A stretch of DNA of 64,000 bases, taken from an uncultured Gemmatimonadaceae bacterium. Its GTDB lineage: Bacteria > Gemmatimonadota > Gemmatimonadetes > Gemmatimonadales > Gemmatimonadaceae. Made by a program: the position numbers and the translations under genes. The notes beneath the pieces are model-generated. The model worked only from the letters and a program-made list of their open reading frames with translations. It was not told the DNA's origin and did no database searches. Positions 46,696-58,990 of the stretch are shown piece after piece. The DNA is taken from contig CAVUFA010000003.1 in assembly GCA_963740565.1 (NCBI GenBank), forward strand, positions 48,137 to 112,136. Direction: 5' to 3'. Every line of letters starts with the position of its first letter. Within the stretch, counting starts at the first letter, position 1.

Positions 46696-47697
46696 CTACT
46701 TCGATTTCTCCGGCACGCCCAGCTCATGTCTCATCGATGCCGGAACCGGCTCATCGAGCTTCCAACGGACCGTGATCGGCTTGTCACCTTCCCAGCTCAC
46801 GAACCTGAGCGGCCCCGCATAGACGAACCCCATCGTCTTGCCCGCCTGCTTCGCGGCGGCACGCACAAAGAGATGCACGCCAATGTTCAACTGCTCGTGC
46901 CCAGCTAACCGCTTACCCGCATCGCTCTCCCGCGCCGTTCGGTTCTGACTCTGCCACTGAAACGTGGAAGGGTCCAGAAACGCATCGGTGTACTTGTGCT
47001 CCTCCGCTTCTCCCCGGTCCGGCGATAGCACGTACTCGTCGTTCAATCGCTGGAACATGACGCGATGACTGGTACCGGGCTGGCCCGCGCCTTCGCCGAA
47101 CCATTTTCGTAGCACTTCGCCGAGCACGTTCGCCTCGGCGCCTTTGCGATGCATGACGTTGACAGCGACCTTGACGAAGTTCGCGAGGTACGGCTCTGCA
47201 TCCGCGGTGACGTCAACCCAGCCTTCGGGAATCCCCGCTACCCTGTCGCGCGACGGGAGAAACAGGATGGGCTGACTGCCGGCGTGAGACACTCGGCACA
47301 CAATACGAGGCGCACCGTCCACGATTCCGGTCCGCCTGATGTACTGCGCGAGTCGCCACTCGGTGATCTCGCGAACCAACGCGGCAGTCGCATCACGGAG
47401 CGCATCGGGAACATCGAGGCGCGCTGCGAACTGCCTACTTTCGTAGCTGAAGTACTTCTCGCCGGCTGTACCCCTGCCGCCGACCCACGCGGCGATGGGG
47501 TGTTCCTCCAGGAGCGCGACTAGCGCAGAATCGTCGGCCAGCGCATCCGCGAATTCAGTCCGAAGCGCAGCACTTCGCTGCACGATGGTTCGCACGCGGG
47601 CAACAAGACGCTCGATCGTGATGGAGCCGGGGAGGGAGTCTTCCGCGAGCATCGCGAGGAGCACGACCATTTTGAAGCTCGGAGTGAGCGGAGTCAC
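46696..47697 (-). pseudogene. Orphan C-terminal (wH plus partial DUF3427 target-recognition) module, a paralogous fragment of the 50800 gene
   Basis: ORF 46696..47697 begins (GTG) exactly at the repeat boundary. It matches residues about 861-1228 of ORF 50800..54486 nearly identically. The 51 aa DSQPRYWQRYTRADVPKLFGFEFKAFESQSGVVERPGLVLLFVTLDKTGKP are missing. It keeps 18 C-terminal residues (EPVPASMRHELGVPEKSK) that the full-length gene has lost. Confidence 0.7.
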
Positions 47698-47698
47698 C
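46696..47698. repeat. Direct repeat copy A (about 1.0 kb) of the 3' end of the HIT-PLD-helicase-DUF3427 gene
   Basis: It aligns by eye to 50751-51900 at roughly 95 percent identity. It lacks a 153-bp in-frame block present in copy B (51055-51207) and carries 6 extra nt near 46703. Confidence 0.9.
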
Positions 47699-47716
47699 CA
47701 ACGTGCGAACCGGAGG

Positions 47717-48517
47717 CTACCTCACGCCGAGTATCCAGCCCTCGACCGTCGCGACCATCTGCTCGCTTGGCTTTAGGCCAGGATGCAGGAAGTCCAACAG
47801 CGCACCGCTGCTGTCGGCCTGTCGCAACCACGCGGCGACGGTATAGGCGTCGTGTTGATGGTCGTTGCGATCCTCACGAGGGAAGCTCTGCTTCCATAGA
47901 GAGGGATACACCTCGACTATCGCCGACCGGCCGACGGGGATCTCCCAACCGTCGAATGGCCAGAAGTGGAGGTGTTCGCCGAGTTGTCGGCGCAGATAGC
48001 GAAGCCAGGGAATGCCGGCATGCGTGGACTTGGCGACCGAGCCTTGGCAATCGAAGTGAAAGACCGACTTTGCGGCGCCGGCGCGGAGCTCGGTGATGCG
48101 GCGCCAGCGGGAGTTGCCCTGACGCGCGGCGCCGTTTCCATGCAATCCGTCGCGCACGAAGTCGACGTACATATTGTCGTCATCCGTCGGCCAATGGCGC
48201 TGGAAGTCGTCGAGGAACGCCGGCCAGTCCGGTGGCAAGCGATGCGTCTCGAAGTAGCGCAACGGGAAAGAGAACCCGTGGTCGATGCCGACGATCGTGC
48301 GGCGTTCTTCACGTAACTGCTCCACCAGCCACTCTGCGATGCCACGCCGAGTCCAATACTTTCGGGCGCTCGGGGGCGGTGGCACTTCGGTTGGTAGCGC
48401 TGCCCGATCTGCGGCGTATACCCTGAGTCCTTTGAGGCTCGCCGTGGGCACCTGAGCGCCGGAGTAATCGATGCCGATATAACGCGCGAATCGCGGAAGG
48501 CTGCGGACGTCTGACAT
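47717..48517 (-). CDS. Hypothetical protein, possibly RNase-H-fold (DUF429-like)
   Basis: Inner ATG at 48517 (MSDVRSLPRFARYIGIDYSGAQ...TIVGIDHGFSFPLRYF...AIVEVYPSLW...HQHDAYTVAAWL). The spaced acidic motifs (IGIDYSG, GIDHGF, VEVYP, HDAY) resemble DUF429. The assignment is tentative. Confidence 0.45.
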   Translation of the reverse strand: MSDVRSLPRFARYIGIDYSGAQVPTASLKGLRVYAADRAALPTEVPPPPSARKYWTRRGIAEWLVEQLREERRTIVGIDHGFSFPLRYFETHRLPPDWPAFLDDFQRHWPTDDDNMYVDFVRDGLHGNGAARQGNSRWRRITELRAGAAKSVFHFDCQGSVAKSTHAGIPWLRYLRRQLGEHLHFWPFDGWEIPVGRSAIVEVYPSLWKQSFPREDRNDHQHDAYTVAAWLRQADSSGALLDFLHPGLKPSEQMVATVEGWILGVR

Positions 48518-48525
48518 GACCGCGA

Positions 48526-48801
48526 TCAAGAGGGGTTCGTCAGCCAACGCTTGAGATCCTCGGCGGTTGTCAGCACACGAGAACGCTCCGCGATGGACGC
48601 ATGTATCTGGAGTGGCGAATAGCCGGTGGGCATCAGGGATTCTTCGTTGACGACCCAACAATGACGCCAGTTCTTGGGTCTCCCCGACAGGACCGAGCGA
48701 GGAATCGTTCCGACGAGTCCGGCCACCGCTCCGTACGTTGCCCTTTGGTGATACTGATTCAGTGAATCGAGAATCGTATCGAGCAGAGACATTGAGACCA
48801 T
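48526..48801 (-). CDS. MGMT-family / alkyltransferase-like DNA-binding domain protein (no active-site PCHR motif)
   Basis: 91 aa. Sequence ...QRATYGAVAGLVGTIPRSVLSGRPKNWRHCWVVNEESLMPTG. The tYG.vA...G..pR.V pattern of the MGMT DNA-binding domain is present, but CWVVN stands where PCHRV is expected. Confidence 0.55.
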   Translation of the reverse strand: MVSMSLLDTILDSLNQYHQRATYGAVAGLVGTIPRSVLSGRPKNWRHCWVVNEESLMPTGYSPLQIHASIAERSRVLTTAEDLKRWLTNPS

Positions 48802-48831: not shown

Positions 48832-49833
48832 CTAGGACGACCTCGGCCGACGCCAGACTCCTCGTGAGCGTGAACGCCTCGGCGCTGCCGCCGGTATGCT
48901 CGTCAGCTCAATGAGGTAACGAGGCGTAAACGTGCGTTGTGTCACCGTGACCGGCCCCATCTTCGCGACGTTGAAGGCCTTTACTTGTCCTGATTCAGCT
49001 TCCAAACCATAAAGTAGAAGGTTGCCGGTTTGCGGTCGTCTGAACGAGTAAGGTTCGACAGTCCGCATTTGACCGGAATACGGGAACGATACCATGAGAC
49101 GGTTGGCGCCGGCGAACCGAATGGTTTCGATGGGAGCCCCTTCTCGCCAGAGTCTCGCGCTGGGCGCAACGACCGTTGACTCGCCACCTCGCGTTGCAAT
49201 GGGCGCCAGAGCAGGCGCCGCGATCACTGCTTCCTCGAGCCACGCCAGCGCCTCCGGCAGCCTGTCAATGAAGGTCTCGACATCGACGACTTCTGGAAGC
49301 TGATGCGCGATCATGTCCCGCCAGTCGGCCCTGATTTCCTCCGACCTCCGAATGAGCTCCACCAGCTCGTCGCGTGATGGCGCGACCAGCGACTTGCTTC
49401 GGCACTTCTCGAGCCAGATCTCGCGAGCGCGTTCGGTGTCGATCTGCTCGCCGCTGAACGCGACATACACCACGTCGTACAGATCTCTCGGGCGCGCGCG
49501 TTCAAAAAGAGCGCGAGTCTTCTCGGCGAGTAACTCTTCGAGGGTGTATGTAGAAACGCTCGTGCCAGGCGGGAGTTGATCTGGATAGGAGTGAAAGATC
49601 GGACGTGCGTCGGGCTCATCGACGATGACCTCGTGTTGGGTGATATCGAAAAGCAGGCGAGGTGAGAGAAAACACTTCTTGAGACACGTTCCGCCCTTCA
49701 GAACCCAGTTGGTCGAGATCTGGGGGTCGCCGCCATCAGCAAGCACCCACCCGAGCACGTAGTCTTTCTCGACAACAGCTGGATTCAGGCGCCATTCGCG
49801 CGCGCGGTCGACGATATCCTGCTTGGTGATCAC
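48832..49833 (-). CDS. abiEii: AbiEii/AbiGii-family nucleotidyltransferase toxin homologue with a shortened catalytic region and a C-terminal WYL-like domain
   Basis: N-terminus REWRLNPAVVEKDYVLGWVL...VLKGGTCLKKCFL and later LEELLAEKTRALFERARPRDLYDVVYV are AbiEii hallmarks. The RFSEDLDF acidic motif is replaced by SPRLLFDIT. The C-terminal 90 aa (IRFAGANRLMVSFPYSGQMRTVEPYSFRRPQTGNLLLYGLEAESGQVKAFNVAKM) follow the WYL-domain pattern. Confidence 0.7.
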   Translation of the reverse strand: MITKQDIVDRAREWRLNPAVVEKDYVLGWVLADGGDPQISTNWVLKGGTCLKKCFLSPRLLFDITQHEVIVDEPDARPIFHSYPDQLPPGTSVSTYTLEELLAEKTRALFERARPRDLYDVVYVAFSGEQIDTERAREIWLEKCRSKSLVAPSRDELVELIRRSEEIRADWRDMIAHQLPEVVDVETFIDRLPEALAWLEEAVIAAPALAPIATRGGESTVVAPSARLWREGAPIETIRFAGANRLMVSFPYSGQMRTVEPYSFRRPQTGNLLLYGLEAESGQVKAFNVAKMGPVTVTQRTFTPRYLIELTSIPAAAPRRSRSRGVWRRPRSS

Positions 49834-49839
49834 CGGATG

Positions 49840-50676
49840 TTACCGCTGATGCACGTCGGCGTTGATCCAGAGGCCCCACCGTTTCGAGAGCTTGCCGCGT
49901 GACCGAATCGCGGGATCGAGCTTGATGTAACCGGCACTCTTGCGAGACAACAGCTCGTCGATCACAACAGTTTCGCCGACGCCCATTGTTTCGAGGAGCC
50001 AGCCGAGACGTTTGGCCTGGGCGCCGCCACGAAGCCGAGGGAGCTCGCGCACGAGATCCGCGACGGATCCCTTGGAAGAGTCCAGATAATTCGTCAACGC
50101 ATCAGCCACATTACGAACTCCCCCGAGCCACGATGGATCGCGCAGCGCGTCGACGAGCGTGCGTTCGCGCGATGAGACGTGCACCCGCTCGCTGCCTCTC
50201 CAGACGGTCGTTAGGTTGGCTATTCGTACAGCTGGCACTCGCTTGATGACAAAGCGAAGTCCCAGGACTGCAACTTCGCGCGCTCTCACCGAAGCGGCGG
50301 AGACCACGAACGTCTTCGCGAAGATCTGCTCGGTGAGCCCCCAATGTTCGGCTGCGCTCCACCCACCGATGTAGCAGGGAGTGAAGAGGTGGCTCGCCAC
50401 CAGCCATGGATCGTGATGTGTGGTGGTCGCGCCGGATTCGGCTTCAAGCGGTAGAATGAAGTACTGGCCGCGTCTCAGCCGCGTCACCCAACCAGTTCGC
50501 GCGAGGTTCGACAGAAGTGCCGAAGCTCGCCCGCGCGGACGCCCAAGGGTCACTGCCGCCGTGTTTACGTCGATGATCCCGCTCGGGGCTGAGCGGGCGA
50601 GCAGGGAGAGCGTGCGTTTGGCCTCGGAGGGGAGCGGCGCTGACATTTTTTTGGTATATTCTGCGTGTAGTAACAT
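49840..50676 (-). CDS. abiEi: AbiEi-family type IV TA antitoxin / transcriptional regulator
   Basis: N-terminal wHTH (LLSNLARTGWVTRLRRGQYFILP). AbiEi_4-like C-terminus (YIGGWSAAEHWGLTEQIF...SSRERTLVDALRDPSWLGG). It lies 6 nt upstream of abiEii. Confidence 0.85.
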   Translation of the reverse strand: MLLHAEYTKKMSAPLPSEAKRTLSLLARSAPSGIIDVNTAAVTLGRPRGRASALLSNLARTGWVTRLRRGQYFILPLEAESGATTTHHDPWLVASHLFTPCYIGGWSAAEHWGLTEQIFAKTFVVSAASVRAREVAVLGLRFVIKRVPAVRIANLTTVWRGSERVHVSSRERTLVDALRDPSWLGGVRNVADALTNYLDSSKGSVADLVRELPRLRGGAQAKRLGWLLETMGVGETVVIDELLSRKSAGYIKLDPAIRSRGKLSKRWGLWINADVHQR

Positions 50677-50750: not shown

Positions 50751-51900
50751 CTACTTCTCCGGCACGCCCAGCTCGTCTCTCATCGGCGCCGGTACCGGCT
50801 CAGTCGAGCTTCCAACGGACCGTGATCGGCTTGTCACCTTCCCAGCTCACGAACCTGAGCGGTCCCGCATAGACGAACCCCAGCGTCTTGCCCGCCTGCT
50901 TTGCAGTGGCCCGAACGAAGAGATGCACTCCAATGTTCAACTGCTCGTGCCCAGCTAACCGCTTACCCGCATCGCTCTCCCGCGCCGTTCGGTTCTGACT
51001 CTGCCACTGAAACGTGGAAGGGTCCAGAAACTCATCGGTGTATTTGTGCTCCTCAGGCTTGCCAGTCTTGTCCAGCGTGACGAATAGCAGCACGAGCCCG
51101 GGTCGCTCGACCACGCCGGATTGCGATTCGAACGCCTTGAATTCAAAGCCAAACAGCTTCGGCACGTCCGCGCGCGTGTAGCGCTGCCAATAGCGTGGCT
51201 GCGAGTCCGCTTCTCCCCGGTCCGGCGATAGTACGTACTCGTCGTTCAATCGCTGGAACATGACGCGATGACTGGTGCCTGGCTGGCCCGCGCCTTCGCC
51301 AAACCATTTTCGCAGCACATCGCCGAGCACATTCGCCTCGGCGCCTTTGCGATGCATGACGTTGACAGCGACCTTGACGAAGTTCGCGAGGTACGGCTCT
51401 CCATCCGCGGTGACGTCAACCCAGCCTTCGGGAATCCCCGCCACCCTGTCGCGCGACGGGAGAAACAGGATGGGCTGACTGCCGGCATGAGACACTCGGC
51501 ACACAATACGCGGCGCACCGTCCACAATTCCGGTCCGCCTGATGTACTGCGCGAGTCGCCACTCGGTGATCTCGCGAACCAACGCGGCAGTCGCATCACG
51601 GAGCGCATCGGGAACATCGAGGCGCGCTGCGAACTGCTTACTCTCGTAGCTGAAGTACTTCTCGCCGGCTGTACCCCTGCCGCCGACCCACGCGGCGATG
51701 GGATGTTCCTCCAGGAGCGCGACTAGCGCAGCATCGTCGGCCAGCGCATCCGCGAATTCAGTCCGAAGCGCAGCACTTCGCTGAACGATGACTCGCACGC
51801 GGGCAACAAGACGCTCGATCGGGATGGAGCCGGGGAGGGCCTCTTCCGCGAGCATCGCGAGGAGCACGACCATCTTGAAGCTCCGCGTGAGCGGAGTCAC
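50751..51900. repeat. Direct repeat copy B (3' end of the full-length gene)
   Basis: See copy A. The homology ends at ...GAGCGGAGTCACC (about 51900 in B, about 47698 in A). Confidence 0.9.
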
Positions 51901-54336
51901 CTCGAGCGATTGCAGAAACGCTCGCAGCCGCGACTCGGCGGCGTCCGCGTCGGCGTCCAAGTCTCCCATGGTGCGCACGAACTGGAACCAGGAGCCGTAA
52001 CCCTGCCGAGTCGCTCGCGGATCGTAGCCGTCGTGAAATGCTTCGGTCGCGGTTGGGCGGACACCGTTGCGGTCGCGGAAGTCCGTGTAGTACGACATGA
52101 GCGCCTGTGGCCGGTCCATGTCGCGCTGCAGAAGCGTCCGCAGTATTTCGATGGCCTCGAGATCGTAGGTGACCGAGCAGCCGGGAGGCAGGAGTTCACC
52201 AGCGCGGCCTTCGTCGACCAGCCGAAGCGCGTATGCCGTGCTCGCGGCGCTTCCGTCCAACTGAAAGAGCGTGCGCGGCTTGAGGAGAAACGACCGATGG
52301 TTGCCGATGTAGTCGATGACTTTGAGCCGCTTCCCCGAGCGATAGCGAAGCCCTCGCCCGAACTGCTGCAGCCACAGCACCGGTGACTCCGTGGGGCGCA
52401 GCATGAGGATGGTGTCGACATCAGGCAGGTCCACGCCTTCATTGAACATGTCGACCGCGAAGAGCACATCGAGCTGACCATCCTGCAACTGCTCCAGCGA
52501 ACGGGCGCGTGGATCGCTCGTGGGCCCAGAATGGACGGACGCGCACCGGAGTCCGGCACCTAGGCAGAAATCTTTCATGAAGTCCGCGTGCCGTAGCGAC
52601 ACGCAGAAAGCGAGGGTTCGCGTTCCTCCGCGTCGTCGCATCTGATCGACGGCATTCTCGGCGCGGGACTCGATCGCGAGGCTCGCCGTGAGCTCCTTCT
52701 CGTCGAAACGCCCGTTGCGCCATGGAATGTTGGTGTAGTCAACTTCGTCCGGCACACCGTAGTAGTCGAAGGGGGCGAGCAGTCCTCGGCGAATTCCTTC
52801 GACGAGATCACACCGGTACACGAGGTTCTCGCCGCAAAGCGAGAGAAGATCCGCGCCGTCGGTGCGCTCGGGCGTTGCCGTGAGGCCAAGCAGGAAGCGC
52901 GGGGTAAAGTGATCCAACAGTCGTTGATACGTCGTCGCGCTGGCGTGATGAAACTCGTCGACAACGATGTAGTCGAACGCGGTAGCGAAGAAACGCTCGA
53001 GATGCGCCCGGCGATTCAGCGTTTGAATGGACGCGAAGGTGACGTCGGCATTCGTCTCGCGGCTGGCCCCCATGTATTTGCCGAGTATGGCCTGCGGACG
53101 GATAGTGCGAAACGTGCGCATGGCCTGGTCGAGAATCTCTTCGCGATGTGCCACGAAGAGCACGCGCTCGGCGCCAAAAGCCTCGGTGTCGAAGGCGCTC
53201 AGCCAGGTTTTGCCGAGCCCCGTCGCGAGAACGACGAGACCAGCGGTGTTCCCTTGGGCACGCGTGGCCGCCAGCGCTTCGAGCGCCTCGCGTTGAACAG
53301 GGTGCGGCTCGGGGACCAGAAGCGGGGGCTCGACAGGAACGGGCAACACAATGGCCTGCATGCGCCGTCGCTTCTGGTACGCCGCTATTACGTCAGGAGT
53401 AACGCGGACGGCTCGTTCGTCAGCGAAAACGTGCTCGAACGCATCGTGGACTGTCCGAAAACCAGCGCCATCGCGGGAGGTAATCACGCGATAGTTCCAC
53501 TCGATGCCCTCACGTAGCGCAGTCTGCGTGAGGTTCGAGCTTCCGACAAACGCCGTTCCCCGTCCGTCGCCTTCGGCGCAGATGTAGCTCTTGAGGTGGA
53601 AGCTCGTTCCGTCGGCCTGGAAGAAGCGGAGGTCAAGTCCTCCACCGATGTCCAGCAAGCGACGCAGAGCGTCTGGCTCGGTACCATCGAGGTAGTCTCC
53701 CGTCACCAGTCGCACTCTTCCGCCGCGGCCGATGACGTCGCGAAGGTGTTCCTCGACGAGCTTCACGCCGCTCACCATCGTGAAGGCGACCGCAATGTCG
53801 ACATGGCTCGCGCCGGCGATGTGCGAGACCAGGTGCGGAAGAAGCGGATCGCCGGCGCCTCGGATCAGCGGTTCGCCATGAGGGGCACCGGACTTCGCGG
53901 GATCGGTCAGGTAGTTGGCGAGCGACGGGATCACGAACCGCAACCCGCCACGCGGGTCGGGGAGGTCTCCCTTATACCTCGGAATCACATGCAGATGCAC
54001 GTGGTCTATCGTCTGACCAGCAGCCGCACCTACGTTGACGCCAATGTTGTATCCGTCGGGGGTGTGCTCCTGGTCAATGATGGCTCTTAACCGCGCGACC
54101 AGCGCAAGCATTTCCTGCTGCTCGGCCGGAGAAGTGTCGAACCAGCTGCTGATATGCCGTCGCGGTATGACAAGGCCGTGACCGGGCGAGACGGGGTGCG
54201 TGTCCCAAAGAGCTCGCGAACGCTCTTCGACAAGGAGACAGGCATCATCTGAAATGGAGCAGAGGGCGCAATCGATCGGAACGTGATCGCCGAGTGAGTC
54301 ATCAGGTGTGGGCTCTCGGGAGCGCTCGGTACTCAA
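50800..54336 (-). CDS. HIT domain / PLD-family nuclease / SF2 helicase / DUF3427 fusion protein (SauUSI-like type IV modification-dependent restriction enzyme architecture plus an extra N-terminal HIT domain)
   Basis: ORF 50800..54486. HIT: CALCSI...GHGLVIPRRH...GQTIDHVHLHVIPRY. PLD: VDIAVAFTM...FHLKSYICAEGDGRGTAFVGSSNLT. Helicase motifs: LATGLGKT (I), VVDEFHH (II), GLTATPER (III), QQFGRGLR (VI). C-terminal DUF3427 region: YWQRYTRADVPKLFG...FQWQSQNRT. The likely start is the TTG at 54336, overlapping the SprT-like stop (TTGA). The in-frame ATGs at 54423 and 54486 would overlap that gene by 90-150 nt. Confidence 0.85.
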   Translation of the reverse strand: MSTERSREPTPDDSLGDHVPIDCALCSISDDACLLVEERSRALWDTHPVSPGHGLVIPRRHISSWFDTSPAEQQEMLALVARLRAIIDQEHTPDGYNIGVNVGAAAGQTIDHVHLHVIPRYKGDLPDPRGGLRFVIPSLANYLTDPAKSGAPHGEPLIRGAGDPLLPHLVSHIAGASHVDIAVAFTMVSGVKLVEEHLRDVIGRGGRVRLVTGDYLDGTEPDALRRLLDIGGGLDLRFFQADGTSFHLKSYICAEGDGRGTAFVGSSNLTQTALREGIEWNYRVITSRDGAGFRTVHDAFEHVFADERAVRVTPDVIAAYQKRRRMQAIVLPVPVEPPLLVPEPHPVQREALEALAATRAQGNTAGLVVLATGLGKTWLSAFDTEAFGAERVLFVAHREEILDQAMRTFRTIRPQAILGKYMGASRETNADVTFASIQTLNRRAHLERFFATAFDYIVVDEFHHASATTYQRLLDHFTPRFLLGLTATPERTDGADLLSLCGENLVYRCDLVEGIRRGLLAPFDYYGVPDEVDYTNIPWRNGRFDEKELTASLAIESRAENAVDQMRRRGGTRTLAFCVSLRHADFMKDFCLGAGLRCASVHSGPTSDPRARSLEQLQDGQLDVLFAVDMFNEGVDLPDVDTILMLRPTESPVLWLQQFGRGLRYRSGKRLKVIDYIGNHRSFLLKPRTLFQLDGSAASTAYALRLVDEGRAGELLPPGCSVTYDLEAIEILRTLLQRDMDRPQALMSYYTDFRDRNGVRPTATEAFHDGYDPRATRQGYGSWFQFVRTMGDLDADADAAESRLRAFLQSLEVTPLTRSFKMVVLLAMLAEEALPGSIPIERLVARVRVIVQRSAALRTEFADALADDAALVALLEEHPIAAWVGGRGTAGEKYFSYESKQFAARLDVPDALRDATAALVREITEWRLAQYIRRTGIVDGAPRIVCRVSHAGSQPILFLPSRDRVAGIPEGWVDVTADGEPYLANFVKVAVNVMHRKGAEANVLGDVLRKWFGEGAGQPGTSHRVMFQRLNDEYVLSPDRGEADSQPRYWQRYTRADVPKLFGFEFKAFESQSGVVERPGLVLLFVTLDKTGKPEEHKYTDEFLDPSTFQWQSQNRTARESDAGKRLAGHEQLNIGVHLFVRATAKQAGKTLGFVYAGPLRFVSWEGDKPITVRWKLD

Positions 54337-54905
54337 CGCGCCACCGATCCTCTGTGTGTCGCGCGCTGAGTCGGCACAGCCCGCGTTGCGACCAAACGAG
54401 TTAGGAGGCCGTTGGTCTGACATTCGGGACACAACCAGGCTGACATCACTCGTCGCGCTCGGCGGCGCCATTGGCACACCGGGCATGTGTGCACGACGGC
54501 CGGGGCAACGCTCTGTGCGCTTCTACTCTCAACACCACGTGCTGACACACCGCGCGGTGCGGCCGTCACTGTTGGCGGGTAGCCTGCTGCCCTAACGAGT
54601 GCAGCCCATTCGGGACCGTGGGCTCGCGGGGGAGCTGCACCCTTGGCGGCGGCTTGCCAAAATGCGACGACGTGCGCGGCCTCGTGGCAGAGCACTCGAA
54701 GCAAGCGGTCTCTCGAGCCGCGTCTGAGGGCGGCACTTAGGGTTACCTGTCCAGTGGAGGGAACGGCACGACCGAGCGTGCGCTGGAGGCGCGTACTGAA
54801 GTTGACTGTGAGCTCTTTGTGGAGCGTGGGCACGTGCCACCGCTCGCCCAGTCGACGAACGGCTGCATCAATCGTGGAATCCGGTGCGCGAGATCGCTGA
54901 GTCAT
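54333..54905 (-). CDS. SprT-like zinc metalloprotease domain protein with a C-terminal zinc ribbon
   Basis: 190 aa. HExxH in LLRVLCHEAAHVVAF, followed by HGPEWAALV. CxxC...CxxC (CPVCQWRRRARRVMSAWLCPEC). Its ATG overlaps the NUDIX stop (ATGA). Confidence 0.75.
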   Translation of the reverse strand: MTQRSRAPDSTIDAAVRRLGERWHVPTLHKELTVNFSTRLQRTLGRAVPSTGQVTLSAALRRGSRDRLLRVLCHEAAHVVAFWQAAAKGAAPPRAHGPEWAALVRAAGYPPTVTAAPRGVSARGVESRSAQSVAPAVVHTCPVCQWRRRARRVMSAWLCPECQTNGLLTRLVATRAVPTQRATHRGSVAR

Positions 54906-55306
54906 GCGCTTGCGGCCGCATTGTTTGAAAGCCGGAACTCGACATATCGGCGATCACTTGGGGCGAGAGGCAGCGCAAGGAGTGAATCAGGCAGCGCCCA
55001 TTTCATGTCGATGTGTTCATGACATGTCGGATTGCCCTCGATGGAGACGGGGACAAAGGCGATGAGAAATGCTGACCCAGGGTCGGCGATCGCGAACTCC
55101 TCGACGCCCACGGCGGTGACCTGGACGCCGAGTTCTTCGCGCAGTTCCCGGTACGCGGCCTCAAAGTCGCTCTCGCCGGGCTCGCACTTGCCGCCGGGGA
55201 ATTCCCAAAGGCCCCCGTGGCGTTTGTGGTGAGGGCGTTGGCAGATGAGCACCTGGTCGCCACGGCTGATGACGGCGGCGATAACGCGAACATTAGGCTC
55301 GGGCAT
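54902..55306 (-). CDS. NUDIX hydrolase (MutT-like (d)NTP pyrophosphohydrolase)
   Basis: ATG at 55306 (MPEPNVRVIAAVISRGDQVLICQR). NUDIX box GGLWEFPGGKCEPGESDFEAAYRELREELGV. Confidence 0.85.
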   Translation of the reverse strand: MPEPNVRVIAAVISRGDQVLICQRPHHKRHGGLWEFPGGKCEPGESDFEAAYRELREELGVQVTAVGVEEFAIADPGSAFLIAFVPVSIEGNPTCHEHIDMKWALPDSLLALPLAPSDRRYVEFRLSNNAAASA

Positions 55307-55520
55307 GAGGCAAAACTGCGTGCGCATGAAGCTGAGCGCCAGAACTCGCGGCTTCGTATCGGTATTGCGAGCAACAACAGTATAGAGCGTGCTCAGCACG
55401 GACCTTCTTAATGGACCGCCAGGGAAGTTCTTCACTGGACAATCGAGCTAGGCTATCCGTGAAGGTATCAGCGATGAAGAAGTTCACGCGTCGGTCCGAG
55501 ACCTTGACCCTACGATGTGC

Positions 55521-56384
55521 TCATTTCCCAATCAGCGGGCACGCTCGAACGAGATCTGCGAGCGTATCCACAGCATGTTCGAAGCGAGTGCGTAACTGTT
55601 GGTCCCGTTGCTGCAACTCCTTACGGGTGCTTGGCGCATGCCCGGACTGATTTCGATGCGGTGTTAGACCGCGAACTCGCGCCCACAACGCCTTGTCAAT
55701 TCGTACTGTACTTGCCAACAGCTTGGGAAAGTCGGCGTTCAGATCAACGTATTCCAGTACCCTTGCCCACGCGGCGGTTCTAAACCTGGGCTTCGACGGA
55801 GGGGGCAGGGTTCTCCACAACAACAACCGGTCGATCTCGGTCGCAACGGTTCGGCTTCCCTTCTCGATCAGGTCGTAGACACGACCGCACCCTTTCGCGG
55901 CGTCCCCGTTGCGAAACGTCTCTTCGGCTTGATGGAGTTGCGCAAAGTAGCCTCTTGGATACCGAGTTCGATCTACCGGCCTGACACCAAAGAGTGATAA
56001 TGAGACCGCGGGGAGCAGCGACCGGACCGTTTTTCCATCGAATTCCACGACTCCTATGCCCCGTTTTCTAGCCTGACGCACGAGATTGAGAAGTTGGGCG
56101 GCTGGCCCTCCAGAGGGAACGGCGACGAACAGCCTGATGGGAAGGCCCGCGGTGAGGCACTCTACGACGAACGTGTCAAGTGCGTTCGTGTACGTGCCAT
56201 CGTTCACTTCAATGGCGAGTATACTCTTGTCGTGGTTCTCCGCCGAGAGAGTTGGCCGGTAAGACAGGTCGCTTGCGATTTCCTCCTCTGCGCGGAAGCG
56301 CTTCGCACCTTCCATCTTCGCGAAGTGCTTTCGTGCAGCTTCAGCGACAGGCACAAGAGAGCCGGCCAATGCACGATACTGCAT
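55521..56384 (-). CDS. Hypothetical 287-aa protein; the C-terminal helical region contains an R-N-x-x-x-H (HEPN-like) motif
   Basis: ORF with operon-like spacing (2 nt after the ParB-like stop). No family recognised in the N-terminal half (SILAIEVNDGTYTNALDTFVVECLTAGLPIRLFVAVP). The C-terminal half is helical, with LTPHRNQSGHAP. Confidence 0.55.
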   Translation of the reverse strand: MQYRALAGSLVPVAEAARKHFAKMEGAKRFRAEEEIASDLSYRPTLSAENHDKSILAIEVNDGTYTNALDTFVVECLTAGLPIRLFVAVPSGGPAAQLLNLVRQARKRGIGVVEFDGKTVRSLLPAVSLSLFGVRPVDRTRYPRGYFAQLHQAEETFRNGDAAKGCGRVYDLIEKGSRTVATEIDRLLLWRTLPPPSKPRFRTAAWARVLEYVDLNADFPKLLASTVRIDKALWARVRGLTPHRNQSGHAPSTRKELQQRDQQLRTRFEHAVDTLADLVRACPLIGK

Positions 56385-56386
56385 TC

Positions 56387-57334
56387 TTACTTCCCCAGAA
56401 GGTCGCGGGCCACACTTACCAACGCGCGCAACCTCTTACGGAGCTCAACGTCGATGTCTTCGGGATGCAGTTGCTTCAATCGCTGCAGCAAACCGTCCAG
56501 ACGAACGGCGATGTCCTTCTCCGTATAGGCGCCGGCGACCGTGTGCTCGTACGCCTGGGCTATGGAGTAGTCGTTGGAGGTGAACAAACGGCTAAGCGCC
56601 TTCTTAGCGGCCGGTACATTCGCCTTCACGCGCGCAGCACGGGCAATCTTGGCCACGTCCCGAAAGTGCGTACGGTTCGCGATCACGTCGGTCCTAAATT
56701 TCTGGACGAGGACACGCCTGACCTTGTTCTTGTCATCAATGACATCAGGCATCGCCCGCTCGACGGTGGTGAGGGCGCGTTCCATCTCGATGAAGAAATC
56801 CTCCGTAAGGCGCTGTTCTCGTTTGGGTTTCTTCAGTTCGCTCTGAAGCTGTTCCTGGAACTCTGCTGGGAGCCCCAGGAGGTAACGACAGCGGCGTATG
56901 ACACCTCTTGCAAGTCCGGTATTCCTGGCGATTTCTGCCTCGGTGGGGCGACTCTTCTTCGCGCGCTCTAGCAGGTTGATGATGACAGCTAGCTTGGTAG
57001 CAATGGTCAAAAGGTCCCACTGCTCTCGGAGCGCGTGGATGTTGAACATCAAAAGCAGGTTCGTAAGGCGGTCGGGCTTCTCCTGAACGAGTGCGGGAAT
57101 GGTCTTGAGGTTCAGCTTAAGAGCGCAGCGCCAGCGCCTTTCGCCGTCGATCAACACAAAGCGTCCTTTCTCGCGATACACAGATACGGGAACCTGTATT
57201 CCGTGAATCGCGATCGACTCCATTAGTTCGTCCATCTCCTTCTGCCGGAAGTGGATCCTGGGATTCTCGCGGTTGGGATCCACGCTATCGACCCTGATTT
57301 GAGCGAGTGTGGCGTTGGCAGCATCAATGGGCAT
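56387..57334 (-). CDS. ParB/Srx N-terminal-domain protein with a central HTH
   Basis: IRVDSVDPNRENPRIHFRQKEMDELMESIAIHGIQVPVSVYREKGRFVLIDGERRWRCALKLNLKTIPALV is the ParB N-domain, including the GERRW box. HTH-like segment PTEAEIARNTGLARGVIRRCRYLLGLP. Confidence 0.8.
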   Translation of the reverse strand: MPIDAANATLAQIRVDSVDPNRENPRIHFRQKEMDELMESIAIHGIQVPVSVYREKGRFVLIDGERRWRCALKLNLKTIPALVQEKPDRLTNLLLMFNIHALREQWDLLTIATKLAVIINLLERAKKSRPTEAEIARNTGLARGVIRRCRYLLGLPAEFQEQLQSELKKPKREQRLTEDFFIEMERALTTVERAMPDVIDDKNKVRRVLVQKFRTDVIANRTHFRDVAKIARAARVKANVPAAKKALSRLFTSNDYSIAQAYEHTVAGAYTEKDIAVRLDGLLQRLKQLHPEDIDVELRKRLRALVSVARDLLGK

Positions 57335-57343
57335 CGGCGATCC

Positions 57344-58201
57344 TCAGATCGGCGCTGTGTTCGAAATGATCAACTCGTAAGCGAAACGTCGATTGTCAGC
57401 GAACCCGGCGATCTGGCGGCGCACTCGCACTCGACGATGGATCCAGTTGACCGCAAGCTTTCGTGCCTCCGAACAGTCGGCGAAGCTGAGGAGAAACTTC
57501 GCTCCCCTGGCGTGGAGCTTGTCGAGGTGCGCACCAAGTCGATCGATGTCTTGTTGTAGAAACCTTCGCGGACCGTAGTCGCGAAACACACGCCGAGCAC
57601 GCACGAAGAAAGGAGGGTCTAGGTAAACGAAGTCGCCGTTGCGTACATCGCGCAGCGTGTGGCCGAAATCGCAAGAGCGTAGGCGCGCAGTCTTCAATCG
57701 GTCTGCTGCATTGATGAAGTCAGCTAGCGCCGGCATCGCACCCGTGCGCGAAGGCGCAAAGGGAACGTTGAATTGCCCACTGTTATTCGTACGATAGAGA
57801 CCGTTGAAGCAGTTGCGATTCAAATAGAGAAAGCGAACGGCCCTGCGGGCTTTCGCAATGCGGGCGGGCACCAGCGTGCGAAGCGCTTCATACGTGGCTG
57901 GCGTTTGAGGAATGCTCGTCACCTCACGCCAAAGCGTTACCGGATCGTCCCGTAGTTCCTCGTAGAATTCGATGAGGTGACTGTTCGAGTCCGCCAAGAG
58001 TGCGCGTGCAGGTCGTATGACGAAGAAAAGCGCAGACGAACCGCAAAACGGTTCTACGTATCGCTCGAAATCAGGAGACCAATACTGTCGAAGCAGTGGG
58101 AGAAGCTGCCGCTTGCTACCTGCCCAGCGTAGGATGGGTCGTCCACTGGCCTCCGGTACTGGTGATGAGGGCACACTCACTTGGTCGTCCCGGACTGACA
58201 C
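57344..58201 (-). CDS. Dam-family (D12-class) N6-adenine DNA methyltransferase
   Basis: Motifs LRWAGSKRQLLP, YVEPFCGSSALFF (SAM binding), FVYLDPPF (DPPY-type catalytic motif). Confidence 0.85.
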   Translation of the reverse strand: MSVRDDQVSVPSSPVPEASGRPILRWAGSKRQLLPLLRQYWSPDFERYVEPFCGSSALFFVIRPARALLADSNSHLIEFYEELRDDPVTLWREVTSIPQTPATYEALRTLVPARIAKARRAVRFLYLNRNCFNGLYRTNNSGQFNVPFAPSRTGAMPALADFINAADRLKTARLRSCDFGHTLRDVRNGDFVYLDPPFFVRARRVFRDYGPRRFLQQDIDRLGAHLDKLHARGAKFLLSFADCSEARKLAVNWIHRRVRVRRQIAGFADNRRFAYELIISNTAPI

Positions 58202-58990
58202 GCGAGATCAACGACGAGTAGCTCCTTGCAGCGGAAACGGCGGGAATCAGGCGCGCCTTCGACGGGCGCGCCGAGTTGTCGCGCGCTGTCAAGGTGTCCG
58301 GTGTGACCGATAAAGCGAACGGTGACGTCTACCGCGTCGGTCTCTCCGAGCTCCCACGCATCGGACGATCGTGCATGCTTGCGAAGATCGAATGATGCCG
58401 GCACGTCGAAGTCCGAAGAGTTGGGTCGCGCACTGTTGGCCTTGGGCCGTCGCACTCGACTGAGCCGATTATTCCGCAACGCTGCACGATCGAGGTCGTA
58501 ACCGACGAGGTATCCGTTGGAGCCGAGGAAGAACACTCCATATGATTGCACACGACGCTGCGCGACCTCATCCCGCTCCATCGACCTGTACGAGAACGAC
58601 AGCTCCTTGCGTCGCGACAGAGCACTGGCGGCTATTTCGAACACATACGCGCACGAGCGGCGCGCCGGCTTCGTGGCCCGCGTTGCTTTGCCCTTTTTCG
58701 TACTCTTCACTCGATCGCGCGGCACTGATTCCTCATGGTCTGCTGAAGGCACGCTTCAATATCGCAGGGGTCCTCGCTGGCGCTCTGACTCCTCGGGATG
58801 ACGGGAACTTCCACTAGCAATCGTACCGGTTTACCGAGAGCGAGATCAACACGCCACGTAACGTGGCGATACATGGCGTCACCTCCTGGCTAACGACTGC
58901 AGTGTGCGTCTCGGGGGATAAACGCATGGTGGGCCGCACGTTCAGCGCCCGGTATCGGTTCACAGAAGTGGCTCCGCTTTTCTGTACAGC
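58177..58990 (-). pseudogene. Decayed PafBC/WYL-type regulator (WYL plus WCX domains retained, HTH region frameshifted)
   Basis: ORF 58177..58752 has the WYL-domain pattern (LSFSYRSMERDEVAQRRVQSYGVFFLGSNGYLVGYDLDRAALRNNRLSRV) but no HTH. Upstream pieces in two other frames (…VSQEVTP… and MYRHVTWRVDLALGKPVRLL from the ATG at 58874 with an AGGAGG RBS) look like remnants of the usual LA.elgVS.RTiyRDi..L...G.Pi helix-turn-helix. Confidence 0.5.

What the first reader, a model, noticed from the sequence alone, without database searches (positions are those of the whole stretch)
50800..58752. Candidate multi-gene defence / DNA-adduct-processing operon: Dam methylase - ParB-like - unknown(HEPN-like?) | NUDIX - SprT-like protease - HIT-PLD-helicase
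Seven co-directional minus-strand genes are packed with coupling-type junctions. The decayed WYL gene and the Dam gene overlap by 25 nt. The Dam-to-ParB gap is 9 nt and the ParB-to-unknown gap is 2 nt. A 214-nt gap follows (55307-55520, room for an internal promoter). Then NUDIX/SprT overlap as ATGA and SprT/helicase overlap as TTGA. The second sub-operon links three nucleotide- or adduct-handling activities. These are a NUDIX pyrophosphohydrolase, a SprT/Spartan-like HExxH protease with a zinc ribbon, and the HIT domain. All three are tied to a modification-dependent nuclease-helicase. I offer two hypotheses. In the first, it is a defence system aimed at hypermodified-cytosine phages: NUDIX degrades the modified dNTP pool while the SauUSI-like enzyme cuts the modified DNA. 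In the second, it deals with DNA-protein or DNA-nucleotide adducts. An anti-defence or leading-region origin (ParB-like plus an orphan methylase plus an ArdC-like SprT protease) is a competing reading. I do not recognise the combination as any named system.
Basis: inference. Interest (0 to 1): 0.8.

Follow-up and report, generated by a model that had tools for sequence, protein, structure and literature searches.

The report
Restriction enzyme with protease partner
The stretch holds two separate phage-defence gene cassettes side by side, and one of them is a methylated-DNA-cutting restriction enzyme that, in bacteria from about ten phyla, travels with a small Spartan-like protease that nobody in the searched literature has described.

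Summary
In detail: seven co-directional minus-strand genes with the stated junctions and domains.

It is not one seven-gene system. It is a truncated WYL gene plus two independently conserved cassettes, inside a low-GC, partly decayed island (about 46.2-59.0 kb).

Cassette 1 (55521-58201) is Dam-family methylase, ParB-like protein and a rare 287-aa protein. That protein has a nuclease-like N-terminal fold and an invariant RNxxxH (HEPN) motif. The trio recurs elsewhere without cassette 2.

Cassette 2 (50800-55306) is a NudG/MutT-like NUDIX, an SprT-like zinc protease, and a full-length homologue of the type IV restriction enzyme SauUSI carrying an extra N-terminal HIT domain.

- SprT sits directly upstream of such an enzyme in 55 of 80 genome loci and 12 metagenome loci, most often with a 4-nt overlap.
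- Natural SprT-enzyme and NUDIX-SprT fusion proteins exist.
- The pair co-diverges.
- Two of three close enzyme relatives examined through the enzyme lack SprT, so it is an accessory.

NUDIX linkage to SauUSI was noted in 2011. I found no description of the SprT or HIT links.

Verdict: a new variant of a known kind. What the accessory enzymes do is inferred, not shown.

The parts
58177..58752 (-). Truncated WYL-domain gene. It has the WYL domain only and lacks the N-terminal HTH part. It is not part of either conserved cassette.
   Evidence: Pfam WYL E 2e-14 at residues 37-103. The PADLOC WYL profile is matched only from position 112 of 229. No WYL gene lies next to the methylase trio in L161-L164.
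57344..58201 (-). Cassette 1, gene 1: Dam-family (D12 class) N6-adenine DNA methyltransferase.
   Evidence: Pfam MethyltransfD12 E 1.9e-37. TIGR00571 dam scores 195.9 bits against a cut-off of 114.85. PADLOC MTase_II E 1.5e-61. An alternative GTG at 58180 overlaps the WYL stop as GTGA.
56387..57334 (-). Cassette 1, gene 2: ParB/Noc-like protein with a ParB N-terminal domain and a GERRWR motif.
   Evidence: Pfam ParB_N E 6e-18. TIGR00180 scores 84.4 bits against a cut-off of 58.45. It is 55-80% identical to the gene between the methylase and the unknown in L161-L164.
55521..56384 (-). Cassette 1, gene 3: 287-aa protein of a rare family. The N-terminal half has an alpha/beta, PD-(D/E)xK-like fold. 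The C-terminal half is helical with an invariant RNxxxH (HEPN-type) motif. It is the probable effector nuclease.
   Evidence: No Pfam, NCBIfam, PHROG or PADLOC match. There are 36 clusters by word search and 368 representatives by full HMM search. AF2 model pLDDT is 93. Foldseek hits are to SfsA, EndoMS/NucS, YaeQ, XisH, Can2 and Card1, with weak Csm6 hits. Invariant residues are listed.
55307..55520 (.). 214-nt spacer between the two cassettes, the presumed start of the cassette 2 transcription unit.
   Evidence: Coordinates. No sigma-70-type promoter, terminator or Rfam match. One 11-nt inverted repeat at 55424-55485.
54902..55306 (-). Cassette 2, accessory gene: 134-aa MutT/NudG-like NUDIX hydrolase with an intact Nudix box.
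   Evidence: Pfam NUDIX E 3e-20. PADLOC candidate PDC-S07 E 2.9e-30. Best NCBIfam match is PRK10546, pyrimidine (d)NTP diphosphatase, at 89.9 bits (cut-off 156). It is present upstream of SprT in L001, L004, L006, L010, L013, L014, L026, L029, L056, L166, L167 and L169. It is fused to SprT in P0078.
54333..54905 (-). Cassette 2: 190-aa SprT/Spartan-like zinc metalloprotease with a C-terminal four-cysteine zinc ribbon.
   Evidence: Pfam SprT-like scores 45.6 bits against a cut-off of 25.6. H74, E75, H78, H96 and C141, C144, C159, C162 are invariant in 52 homologues. The best solved-structure match by sequence profile and by fold is Spartan 6mdx. ATGA and TTGA overlaps with its neighbours.
50800..54336 (-). 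Cassette 2, core enzyme: SauUSI-family type IV restriction enzyme with an added N-terminal HIT domain. Domain positions: HIT about 53971-54240; PLD nuclease about 53485-53814; SF2 helicase about 52342-53310; DUF3427 about 50806-51192. A 1-nt insertion near 50803 removes the conserved last ~18 residues.
   Evidence: PADLOC mREase_IV E 1.3e-118. Pfam domains. SauUSI structure 7clg matches at E 1.6e-82 from the PLD domain to the C-terminus. Catalytic HxHxH, HxK/GSSN and DEFH motifs are conserved. The C-terminal frameshift is shown by comparison with copy B and ten homologues.
46696..47697 (-). Second, decayed copy of the enzyme's 3' end (DUF3427 region), 96-97% identical, with a 153-nt internal deletion. 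With the copy at about 50755-51900 it forms a direct repeat around the AbiE genes.
   Evidence: Direct-repeat families D1-D3. Pfam DUF3427 E 4e-17. Translations.

Best explanation
The 8-kb stretch holds a truncated WYL gene and two adjacent, independently mobile defence cassettes, in a roughly 13-kb low-GC island that is partly decaying.

- DUF3427 probably reads modified cytosine in incoming DNA.
- The SF2 motor translocates using ATP.
- The PLD domain cuts.
- These three steps are inferred from full-length homology to SauUSI.

The three added hydrolases are accessories, not the core.
- SprT is translationally coupled to the enzyme, co-inherited with it, and sometimes fused to it, so it most likely works on or beside the DNA-bound enzyme.
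- My preferred reading is a safety and clean-up role. A DNA-dependent protease removes enzyme molecules that are stalled or covalently trapped on DNA, much as ClpXP degrades HsdR of type I enzymes.
- The Hint-type HIT domain would then hydrolyse the phosphoramidate-linked remnants that a PLD phospho-histidine intermediate can leave.
- The NudG-like NUDIX would destroy 5-methyl- or 5-hydroxymethyl-dCTP, so that the host's own DNA does not become a target.
- These accessory roles are inference only.

Cassette 1 (Dam-family methylase, ParB-like protein, nuclease-fold/HEPN protein) is a separate methylase-linked system, with the 287-aa protein as its likely effector.
For: Identity of the core enzyme:
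- PADLOC mREase_IV E 1.3e-118.
- SauUSI 7clg E 1.6e-82 across PLD, helicase and C-terminus.
- Catalytic motifs invariant or nearly so in 32 homologues.

SprT linkage:
- 55 of 80 genome loci found through SprT have the enzyme immediately downstream on the same strand. They span about ten phyla.
- The start-stop distance could be computed for 49 of those 55 loci. It ranges from -85 to +22 nt, and -4 is the commonest value (20 of the 49).
- 12 more loci were found through the HIT-PLD region.
- Fusion proteins exist: SprT-HIT-PLD-helicase-DUF3427 (P0205, P0211) and NUDIX-SprT (P0078).
- SprT and helicase distances correlate: Mantel r 0.65, with 0 of 2000 permutations reaching it.
- SprT catalytic and zinc-ribbon residues are invariant.

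Accessory status of SprT: L170 and L171 carry enzymes 57-58% identical with no SprT. L087, L090 and L096 also lack it.

HIT and NUDIX recur with distant SauUSI-like genes as separate neighbours, for example L109 with HIT, NUDIX and PLD-helicase as three genes. Xu et al. 2011 (PMC3141236) noted NUDIX next to SauUSI in at least 60 genomes.

Defence setting:
- BREX genes lie next to the cassette in L166.
- A type I R-M system lies next to it in L169.
- A SIR2-domain gene, a serine recombinase and a transposase lie near it in L168; toxin-antitoxin genes flank it in L166 and L167.
- In the window the neighbours are AbiE genes, and GC is 0.57-0.63 against 0.67-0.69 in the flanks.

Independence of cassette 1: the methylase-ParB-287-aa trio is conserved in L161-L164 with no SprT, NUDIX or helicase. 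No SprT-helicase locus carries any part of the trio; the only match to a trio gene is a partial Dam hit in L060, an SprT locus without the enzyme.

Family background for the inferred roles:
- NudG hydrolyses 5-methyl-dCTP (PMC3744803).
- The PLD nuclease BfiI works through a covalent phosphohistidine intermediate (PMC2853115, listed but not read).
- The closest solved HIT relatives are Hint phosphoramidases, Fhit and Ap4A phosphorylase.
Against: - No experiment bears on any step.
- SauUSI itself works as a single polypeptide, without SprT or HIT (PMC3874153). The accessories are therefore not needed for cutting, and their role is open.
- L017 and L018 pair SprT with a helicase-DUF3427 protein that lacks both HIT and PLD. 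This weakens any model in which SprT exists only to deal with PLD adducts.
- The HIT motif is degenerate in L013.
- The NUDIX score is below the NudG equivalog cut-off.
- The window's enzyme has lost its conserved C-terminal tail by a frameshift, and several neighbours are decayed. This particular copy may be inactive.
- The target modification is assumed from SauUSI, not shown.
- The Foldseek match of SprT to Spartan is weak (E 1e-3, TM 0.42).
Confidence: 0.65

Rival explanations
1. Same restriction system, but SprT is an offensive subunit. It degrades proteins that shield or are attached to invading DNA, so that the nuclease-helicase can act. Candidate targets are co-injected anti-restriction proteins, DNA-bound protectors and covalent terminal proteins.
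For: - SprT/Spartan-type proteases act on DNA-bound proteins (family knowledge). The best structural match is Spartan.
- The catalytic residues are invariant.
- There is tight coupling, and there are fusions to the enzyme.
- SprT diverges faster than the helicase core (mean distance 0.57 against 0.31), as expected for a component in an arms race.
Against: No target is known. Close relatives of the enzyme do without SprT. Nothing in the sequence separates this reading from the safety model.
Confidence: 0.2
2. SprT is an activating or regulatory protease. It cleaves the enzyme (for example between the HIT and PLD domains) or a repressor when DNA is sensed, as CapP-type metallopeptidases do for CBASS.
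For: - The fold resembles PprI/IrrE-type regulatory metallopeptidases at low score.
- The gene order places the protease first.
- The fusion proteins have lost the zinc ribbon, which suggests the ribbon serves to recruit SprT to the enzyme or to DNA.
Against: - Enzymes 57-58% identical occur with no SprT, so obligatory activation is unlikely.
- No conserved repressor gene sits next to the pair.
- SauUSI needs no processing.
Confidence: 0.08
3. Cassette 2 is a housekeeping DNA-repair module for DNA-protein crosslinks and adducted DNA ends, not a defence system. It would be a bacterial counterpart of Spartan, aprataxin and TDP1 joined to a helicase.
For: It combines an SprT protease, a HIT domain and a PLD phosphodiesterase in one unit. 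LigD-type end-joining genes lie about 5 kb away in L167.
Against: - The large protein is a full-length SauUSI homologue with the modification-reading DUF3427 domain.
- The HIT domain is Hint/Fhit-like. Aprataxin matches only at about 1e-4.
- The distribution is patchy across phyla, with variable flanks.
- Neighbours are BREX, R-M, toxin-antitoxin and AbiE genes.
- It sits in a low-GC island.
Confidence: 0.06
4. All seven genes form one integrated system, or an anti-defence / plasmid leading-region block (orphan methylase, ParB, ArdC-like protease), as the first reader also proposed.
For: The genes are co-directional and tightly packed. ArdC appears far down the SprT fold-search list (E 0.43).
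Against: - The two halves never co-occur in the other loci examined.
- The 214-nt gap separates them.
- SprT has no ArdC N-terminal domain.
- Neither SprT nor the 287-aa protein matches any of 72,556 plasmid records at E 1e-5.
- No relative of the SprT or 287-aa protein family was found in IMG/VR.
Confidence: 0.03

Closest known systems
SauUSI (Staphylococcus aureus type IV restriction enzyme; PDB 7clg)
   Same: The domain order is the same: PLD nuclease, SF2 helicase, DUF3427. Homology is full-length (E 1.6e-82). HxK/GSSN and helicase motifs are conserved. A NUDIX gene next door was already noted for SauUSI (PMC3141236).
   Different: - This enzyme has an extra N-terminal HIT domain.
- It carries more sequence between the helicase and the C-terminal DUF3427 match than SauUSI does (query residues 832-1050 against chain residues 709-806).
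- An SprT-like protease gene is translationally coupled upstream.
- SauUSI acts alone as a single polypeptide.
Spartan / SprT family DNA-protein-crosslink proteases (PF10263; PDB 6mdx)
   Same: It has the HExxH motif plus a third histidine, and a zinc-binding C-terminal subdomain. Spartan is the best solved-structure match to the protease core by sequence profile; the top-ranked profile hits are ribosomal L37ae/eL43 proteins matching the zinc ribbon. Spartan is also the best match by fold.
   Different: It is only 190 aa. The similarity is weak (profile E 1.4e-4; Foldseek E 1e-3, TM 0.42). It is dedicated to a restriction enzyme and moves with it between genomes, rather than being a stand-alone housekeeping gene.
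ClpXP-dependent restriction alleviation of type I enzymes (degradation of HsdR on host DNA)
   Same: The concept only: proteolysis of a translocating restriction enzyme to protect the host chromosome. This comparison rests on my own knowledge.
   Different: There the protease is the general cellular ClpXP. Here a dedicated metalloprotease is encoded with the enzyme. No evidence shows that SprT cleaves the enzyme.
[quoted passage not shown] 2013, PMC3710099)
   Same: Cassette 1 has exactly this gene context, and its third protein has an invariant RNxxxH motif.
   Different: No Pfam HEPN model matches any of the 35 family members. I had no MAE_28990 sequence to compare. The N-terminal nuclease-like fold is not mentioned in that paper's table.
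PADLOC candidate PDC-S07 / E. coli NudG
   Same: It is a small MutT-type NUDIX flagged as defence-associated (E 2.9e-30). Its best named relative is a pyrimidine dNTP diphosphatase active on 5-methyl-dCTP.
   Different: PDC-S07 is defined as a single gene with no partner. The score is below NCBI's NudG cut-off, so orthology is not established.

Membership tests
SauUSI-family type IV restriction enzyme | N-terminal PLD (HxK ... GSSN) nuclease domain | tested here: met
   FHLKSY and GSSNLT are present. H225, K227 and N246 are invariant in alignment A2. The profile match to 7clg residues 27-191 is E 1.3e-26.
SauUSI-family type IV restriction enzyme | Central SF2 helicase/ATPase | tested here: met
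   ResIII E 9.5e-38 and Helicase_C E 8.8e-14. The VVDEFHH motif is present.
SauUSI-family type IV restriction enzyme | C-terminal DUF3427 domain | tested here: met
   PF11907 scores 74.6 bits against a cut-off of 27.7. A second aligned stretch matches SauUSI residues 806-917. The last ~18 conserved residues are lost by a frameshift.
SauUSI-family type IV restriction enzyme | ATP-dependent cleavage of 5mC/5hmC DNA only | not testable with these tools
   Needs enzyme assays or plasmid and phage challenge.
SprT/Spartan-like metalloprotease (PF10263) | HExxH plus a third zinc-ligand histidine, with a score above Pfam's cut-off | tested here: met
   45.6 bits against 25.6. H74, E75, H78 and H96 are invariant in 52 sequences.
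SprT/Spartan-like metalloprotease (PF10263) | Fold of the Spartan SprT domain (protease plus zinc-binding subdomain) | tested here: inconclusive
   6mdx is the top hit over 182 columns, but at E 1.1e-3, TM 0.42 and rmsd 12.9. The linker at residues 111-130 is modelled at low confidence.
SprT/Spartan-like metalloprotease (PF10263) | DNA-stimulated cleavage of DNA-bound proteins | not testable with these tools
   A biochemical property.
HIT superfamily, Hint/Fhit branch | HxHxHxx triad and Pfam HIT above cut-off | tested here: met
   HVHLHVI is present. The score is 81.4 bits against 21.5. The closest solved relatives are Hint-type proteins, Ap4A phosphorylase and Fhit (E 1e-25 to 1e-17). Aprataxin matches at about 2e-4.
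E. coli NudG (pyrimidine dNTP diphosphatase) orthologue | NCBIfam equivalog score at or above the cut-off | tested here: not met
   89.9 bits against a cut-off of 156. The Nudix box itself is intact. I therefore file it as MutT/NudG-like, not as NudG.
ArdC-type anti-restriction protein | N-terminal ssDNA-binding domain plus a location on conjugative plasmids | tested here: not met
   Only the SprT-like domain is present in 190 aa. There is no plasmid match. The ArdC fold hit is at E 0.43.
HEPN superfamily (287-aa protein) | Rx4-6H motif in an all-helical domain | tested here: inconclusive
   R244-N245-x3-H249 is invariant, and residues 144-286 are helical in a model of pLDDT 93. However, no HEPN profile matches, and the Csm6 fold hits are weak (E 0.04).
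MAE_28990-type HEPN / ParB / methylase operon | HEPN gene in an operon with ParB-like and DNA methylase genes | tested here: met
   The same order, methylase then ParB then 287-aa protein, is seen in the window and in L161-L164. Sequence membership in the named family could not be tested.

The most novel reading that the evidence does not exclude
A bacterial immune nuclease carries its own DNA-protein-crosslink repair kit.
- The SprT-like protease digests enzyme molecules that are stalled or covalently trapped on DNA through the PLD phospho-histidine intermediate.
- The fused Hint-type HIT domain then hydrolyses the remaining peptide-phosphoramidate at the DNA end.
- The NUDIX keeps methylated dCTP out of host DNA.

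This would be a prokaryotic, self-directed counterpart of Spartan plus TDP1/aprataxin, evolved to make a dangerous restriction enzyme safe.
Probability: 0.2. Interest if true: 0.8.

Novelty: new variant of a known kind. Interest (0 to 1): 0.6.

Why it matters
Type IV enzymes of the SauUSI kind are a major barrier to DNA transfer, and they have been treated as single-protein systems. Here a large clade of them is regularly coupled, and occasionally fused, to a Spartan-like protease and a HIT hydrolase. It is found in Gemmatimonadota, Acidobacteriota, Planctomycetota, Verrucomicrobiota and others.

If the protease limits or cleans up the enzyme on DNA, that would be a dedicated, genetically linked form of restriction alleviation. 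It would also give a simple model for how DNA-dependent proteases choose their targets. If the protease instead attacks invader proteins, it would be a new offensive arm of restriction. Either answer is reachable with a three-gene clone and point mutants.

The neighbouring methylase-ParB-HEPN-like trio is a rare and untested candidate system in its own right.

Tried and rejected
- Promoter and terminator consensus scan of 50.5-59.3 kb: no promoter, and terminator-like sites at background level.
- Rfam at a permissive threshold over 46-60 kb: nothing.
- tRNA scan of the whole window, looking for an integration site: none.
- Short repeats in the 214-nt gap and upstream of WYL: only one weak inverted repeat each.
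- Viral contigs (IMG/VR) for the SprT family and the 287-aa family: no relatives.
- PLSDB plasmids for both proteins: no match.
- Pfam at E up to 10 on all 35 members of the 287-aa family: no meaningful hit.
- Look-up of the window's own SprT protein, to name the source genome: not on record. The organism is only inferred to be Gemmatimonadota, from the best hits.
- Neighbourhoods of the more distant SprT homologues (L019, L020, L030 and others): no recurring partner, and the high-GC ORF noise was too heavy to read further.
- All-against-all clustering of flanking ORFs: no conserved neighbour beyond SprT, the enzyme and NUDIX. Most other clusters are shadow ORFs on the enzyme gene.
- Literature: no paper in the held library links SprT or HIT with SauUSI/DUF3427. 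Only six papers mention DUF3427 at all.

Full report
**The observation.** Seven ORFs lie on the minus strand at the stated coordinates.
- The WYL ORF (58177-58752) overlaps the Dam ORF (GTG 58201) by 25 nt. An in-frame GTG at 58180 would make it a GTGA overlap.
- The Dam-ParB gap is 9 nt. The ParB-unknown gap is 2 nt.
- The unknown gene stops at 55521. The NUDIX profiles begin at residue 44-47 of the longest ORF, which fits the ATG at 55306 and gives the 214-nt gap.
- NUDIX and SprT overlap as ATGA. SprT and the helicase overlap as TTGA.
- Domain calls are confirmed by Pfam, PADLOC and NCBIfam.
- The region 46-59 kb has G+C of 0.57-0.63 against 0.67-0.69 on both sides. It sits between a Ser/Thr kinase-PD40 gene and a SIMPL gene.

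**The large protein.**
- It is a full-length homologue of SauUSI. phmmer against solved structures gives 7clg at E 1.6e-82, from the PLD domain through the helicase, plus a second stretch in the C-terminal domain.
- PADLOC calls it mREase_IV at E 1.3e-118.
- It differs from SauUSI by an N-terminal HIT domain with an intact HVHLHVI triad and a preceding CxxC motif.
- In 32 homologues the HIT histidines, the PLD H-x-K and GSSN residues are invariant or nearly so.
- The closest solved HIT relatives are Hint-type proteins, Ap4A phosphorylase and Fhit. Aprataxin is far weaker.

**The SprT-like gene and its linkage.**
- The 190-aa protein passes Pfam's SprT-like cut-off.
- In 52 homologues, H74, E75, H78, H96 and four zinc-ribbon cysteines are invariant.
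- Its best solved-structure match for the protease core, by profile and by fold, is Spartan. Both matches are weak.
- I scanned one genome per species with the SprT alignment, which returned 80 loci. In 55 of them a HIT-PLD-helicase-DUF3427 gene follows immediately on the same strand. In two of these it is a helicase-DUF3427 gene without HIT or PLD.
- The hosts are Gemmatimonadota, Acidobacteriota, Planctomycetota, Verrucomicrobiota, Myxococcota/Deltaproteobacteria, Chloroflexota, Gammaproteobacteria, Spirochaetota, Binatota and others.
- The distance from SprT stop to the nearest start could be computed for 49 of the 55 loci. It runs from -85 to +22 nt, and -4 is the commonest value at 20 of the 49. 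This supports the TTG start in the window.
- The 25 loci without the enzyme are the most distant SprT homologues.
- Clustering all flanking ORFs showed no other conserved neighbour except NUDIX.
- SprT and helicase pairwise distances correlate: Mantel r 0.65, with 0 of 2000 permutations reaching it.

**The reciprocal test.**
- Searching metagenome contigs with the HIT-PLD region gave 12 more loci with SprT upstream.
- It also gave fused HIT-PLD-helicases without SprT (L087, L090, L096).
- Three contexts were reached through the enzyme alone. One had NUDIX-SprT-enzyme beside a type I R-M system (L169). Two had enzymes 57-58% identical with no SprT (L170, L171).
- SprT is therefore frequent but dispensable.

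**Gene fusions.**
- P0205 and P0211 (1335 and 1327 aa) are SprT core-HIT-PLD-helicase-DUF3427 proteins. They have lost the zinc ribbon.
- P0078 is a NUDIX-SprT fusion, followed with a 4-nt overlap by the enzyme.

**NUDIX and HIT as recurrent accessories.**
- NUDIX precedes SprT in the Gemmatimonadota-centred subset: nine genome loci plus L166, L167 and L169.
- Its best named relative is the NudG-type pyrimidine dNTP diphosphatase, but below the curated cut-off. NudG is active on 5-methyl-dCTP (PMC3744803).
- It also matches the PADLOC single-gene candidate PDC-S07.
- Xu et al. 2011 had already noted a MutT/NUDIX gene next to SauUSI in at least 60 genomes, and left its function open (PMC3141236).
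- Stand-alone HIT genes sit next to more distant SauUSI-like genes. Examples are L093, L121 and L148, and L109 with HIT, NUDIX and PLD-helicase as three genes.

**The setting.**
- The pair lies next to BREX genes (L166) and a type I R-M system (L169). Toxin-antitoxin genes flank it in L166 and L167; a SIR2-domain gene, a serine recombinase and a transposase lie near it in L168. In the window it lies next to AbiE.
- No relatives were found in IMG/VR viral contigs or in PLSDB plasmids.
- This favours chromosomal defence islands over phage or plasmid anti-defence.

**The upstream half.**
- The 287-aa protein belongs to a rare family: 36 clusters by word search, and 368 representatives among 1.84 billion by full HMM search. 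It has no profile match.
- Its contexts show the same methylase-ParB-287-aa order in L161 and L164. The order also holds in L162/L163 by tblastn. None of these has SprT, NUDIX or the enzyme.
- None of the SprT loci has this trio. The two halves are therefore separate cassettes, and the WYL fragment belongs to neither.
- An AF2 model (pLDDT 93) has two parts. The N-terminal alpha/beta domain gives weak fold hits that are nearly all PD-(D/E)xK nucleases. The C-terminal half is helical and gives weak Csm6 hits.
- R244, N245 and H249 are invariant. This is the HEPN signature.
- Anantharaman et al. [quoted passage not shown] The context is the same. I could not test sequence membership.

**How it most likely works.**
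- Shown by homology: a PLD nuclease, an ATP-driven SF2 motor and a DUF3427 reader, arranged as in SauUSI. SauUSI cuts 5mC and 5hmC DNA.
- Inferred: the same activity here.
- The accessories are catalytically intact, co-inherited and sometimes fused, yet dispensable in close relatives. That pattern fits helpers better than obligatory subunits.
- I favour a safety and clean-up role, for three reasons:
  - SprT-type proteases act on DNA-bound proteins.
  - PLD nucleases pass through a covalent phospho-histidine-DNA intermediate (BfiI, PMC2853115; this paper was listed but not read).
  - Hint-type HIT enzymes hydrolyse P-N bonds.
- In addition, a NudG-like enzyme would keep methylated dCTP out of host DNA. 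ClpXP-mediated degradation of HsdR is the conceptual precedent (my own knowledge).
- Against an adduct-only role: L017 and L018 keep SprT with a protein that lacks PLD and HIT.
- The rivals are an offensive protease, an activator, and housekeeping repair. They are scored separately in the report.

**State of this copy.**
- The enzyme gene has one extra C before its stop, near 50803. This removes a C-terminal tail that is conserved in ten homologues and in the second copy.
- A 96-97% identical direct repeat of about 1 kb of the enzyme's 3' end flanks the AbiE genes (46706-47700 and 50755-51900). The distal copy carries a 153-nt deletion.
- AbiEii lacks about 80 profile positions.
- The WYL gene lacks its HTH.
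- The island looks old and eroding, so this particular copy may not be functional.

**Novelty.**
- No paper in the held library links SprT or HIT to SauUSI or DUF3427.
- PADLOC-DB 2.0 has no model that matches the SprT gene.
- The core enzyme is a known kind. The NUDIX link is already published.
- The SprT partnership and the HIT fusion are, as far as I can tell, undescribed.

Noticed in passing
window 46706-47700 and 50755-51900: A direct repeat of about 1 kb, 96-97% identical, of the enzyme's DUF3427-coding 3' end brackets about 3 kb. The bracketed stretch holds AbiEi, AbiEii and two unknown ORFs. The distal copy has a 153-nt deletion inside the domain. The layout looks like integration of a circular DNA by single crossover, or a partial duplication. 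Recombination between the repeats would delete the AbiE genes.
   Followed up: partly
window about 50803: One extra C (CTCGAC|TGA, against CTCGATGAG in the second copy) ends the enzyme ORF 18 codons early. This removes a tail (xPVPxxLxxxLG...) that is conserved in ten homologues. It may be real decay or a sequencing error.
   Followed up: yes
window 48832-49833 and 49840-50676: An AbiE toxin-antitoxin pair. AbiEi looks complete (PADLOC E 4e-64). AbiEii matches its profile in two pieces, with about positions 57-135 missing, so the toxin gene probably carries an internal deletion.
   Followed up: partly
window 47717-48661 and 48526-48801: Two overlapping ORFs (314 aa and 91 aa) lie between AbiEii and the repeat copy. 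Neither has a family match in Pfam or PHROGs, and the 314-aa ORF has none in PADLOC (the 91-aa ORF was not scanned there). The only hit is a weak NCBIfam match of the 314-aa ORF to the unknown C-terminal part of a MobB fusion protein.
   Followed up: partly
window 61552-62523: An IS5-type DDE transposase gene (DUF772 + DDE_Tnp_1) lies about 2.5 kb beyond the island's right edge, on the minus strand.
   Followed up: no
L109 5974-9604; also L093, L121, L148: More distant SauUSI-like genes (29-47% identical) have the HIT domain as a separate upstream gene. In L109 the order is HIT gene, NUDIX gene, PLD-helicase-DUF3427. HIT and NUDIX are therefore recurrent companions of the whole enzyme family, not only of this clade.
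   Followed up: partly
L018 251-6186; L017 10001-11878: A Planctomycetota variant: SprT is followed by a helicase-DUF3427 protein that lacks both HIT and PLD. In L018 it is preceded by a 1063-aa SNF2-like helicase that overlaps the SprT start. Where the nuclease activity sits in this variant is unknown.
   Followed up: partly
L013 10496-10792: In this Gemmatimonadales locus the HIT triad is degenerate (HLAVQLRP), while the PLD and helicase motifs are intact. HIT activity is therefore not kept everywhere.
   Followed up: no
L170 7003-7755: In a locus without SprT, the 250-aa gene upstream of the enzyme contains a second, divergent HIT-like stretch (24% identity, E 5e-8).
   Followed up: no
L161 1-14873: The methylase-ParB-287-aa trio sits here between a ResIII helicase plus a 938-aa N6/N4 methylase on one side and UvrD-like, NACHT and TIR-domain genes on the other. 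This is a dense defence island, which supports a defence role for the trio.
   Followed up: no
window 43453-46128: An 891-aa Ser/Thr protein kinase fused to PD40/TolB-type beta-propeller repeats bounds the island on the left. Together with the best hits, it suggests a Gemmatimonadota host.
   Followed up: no
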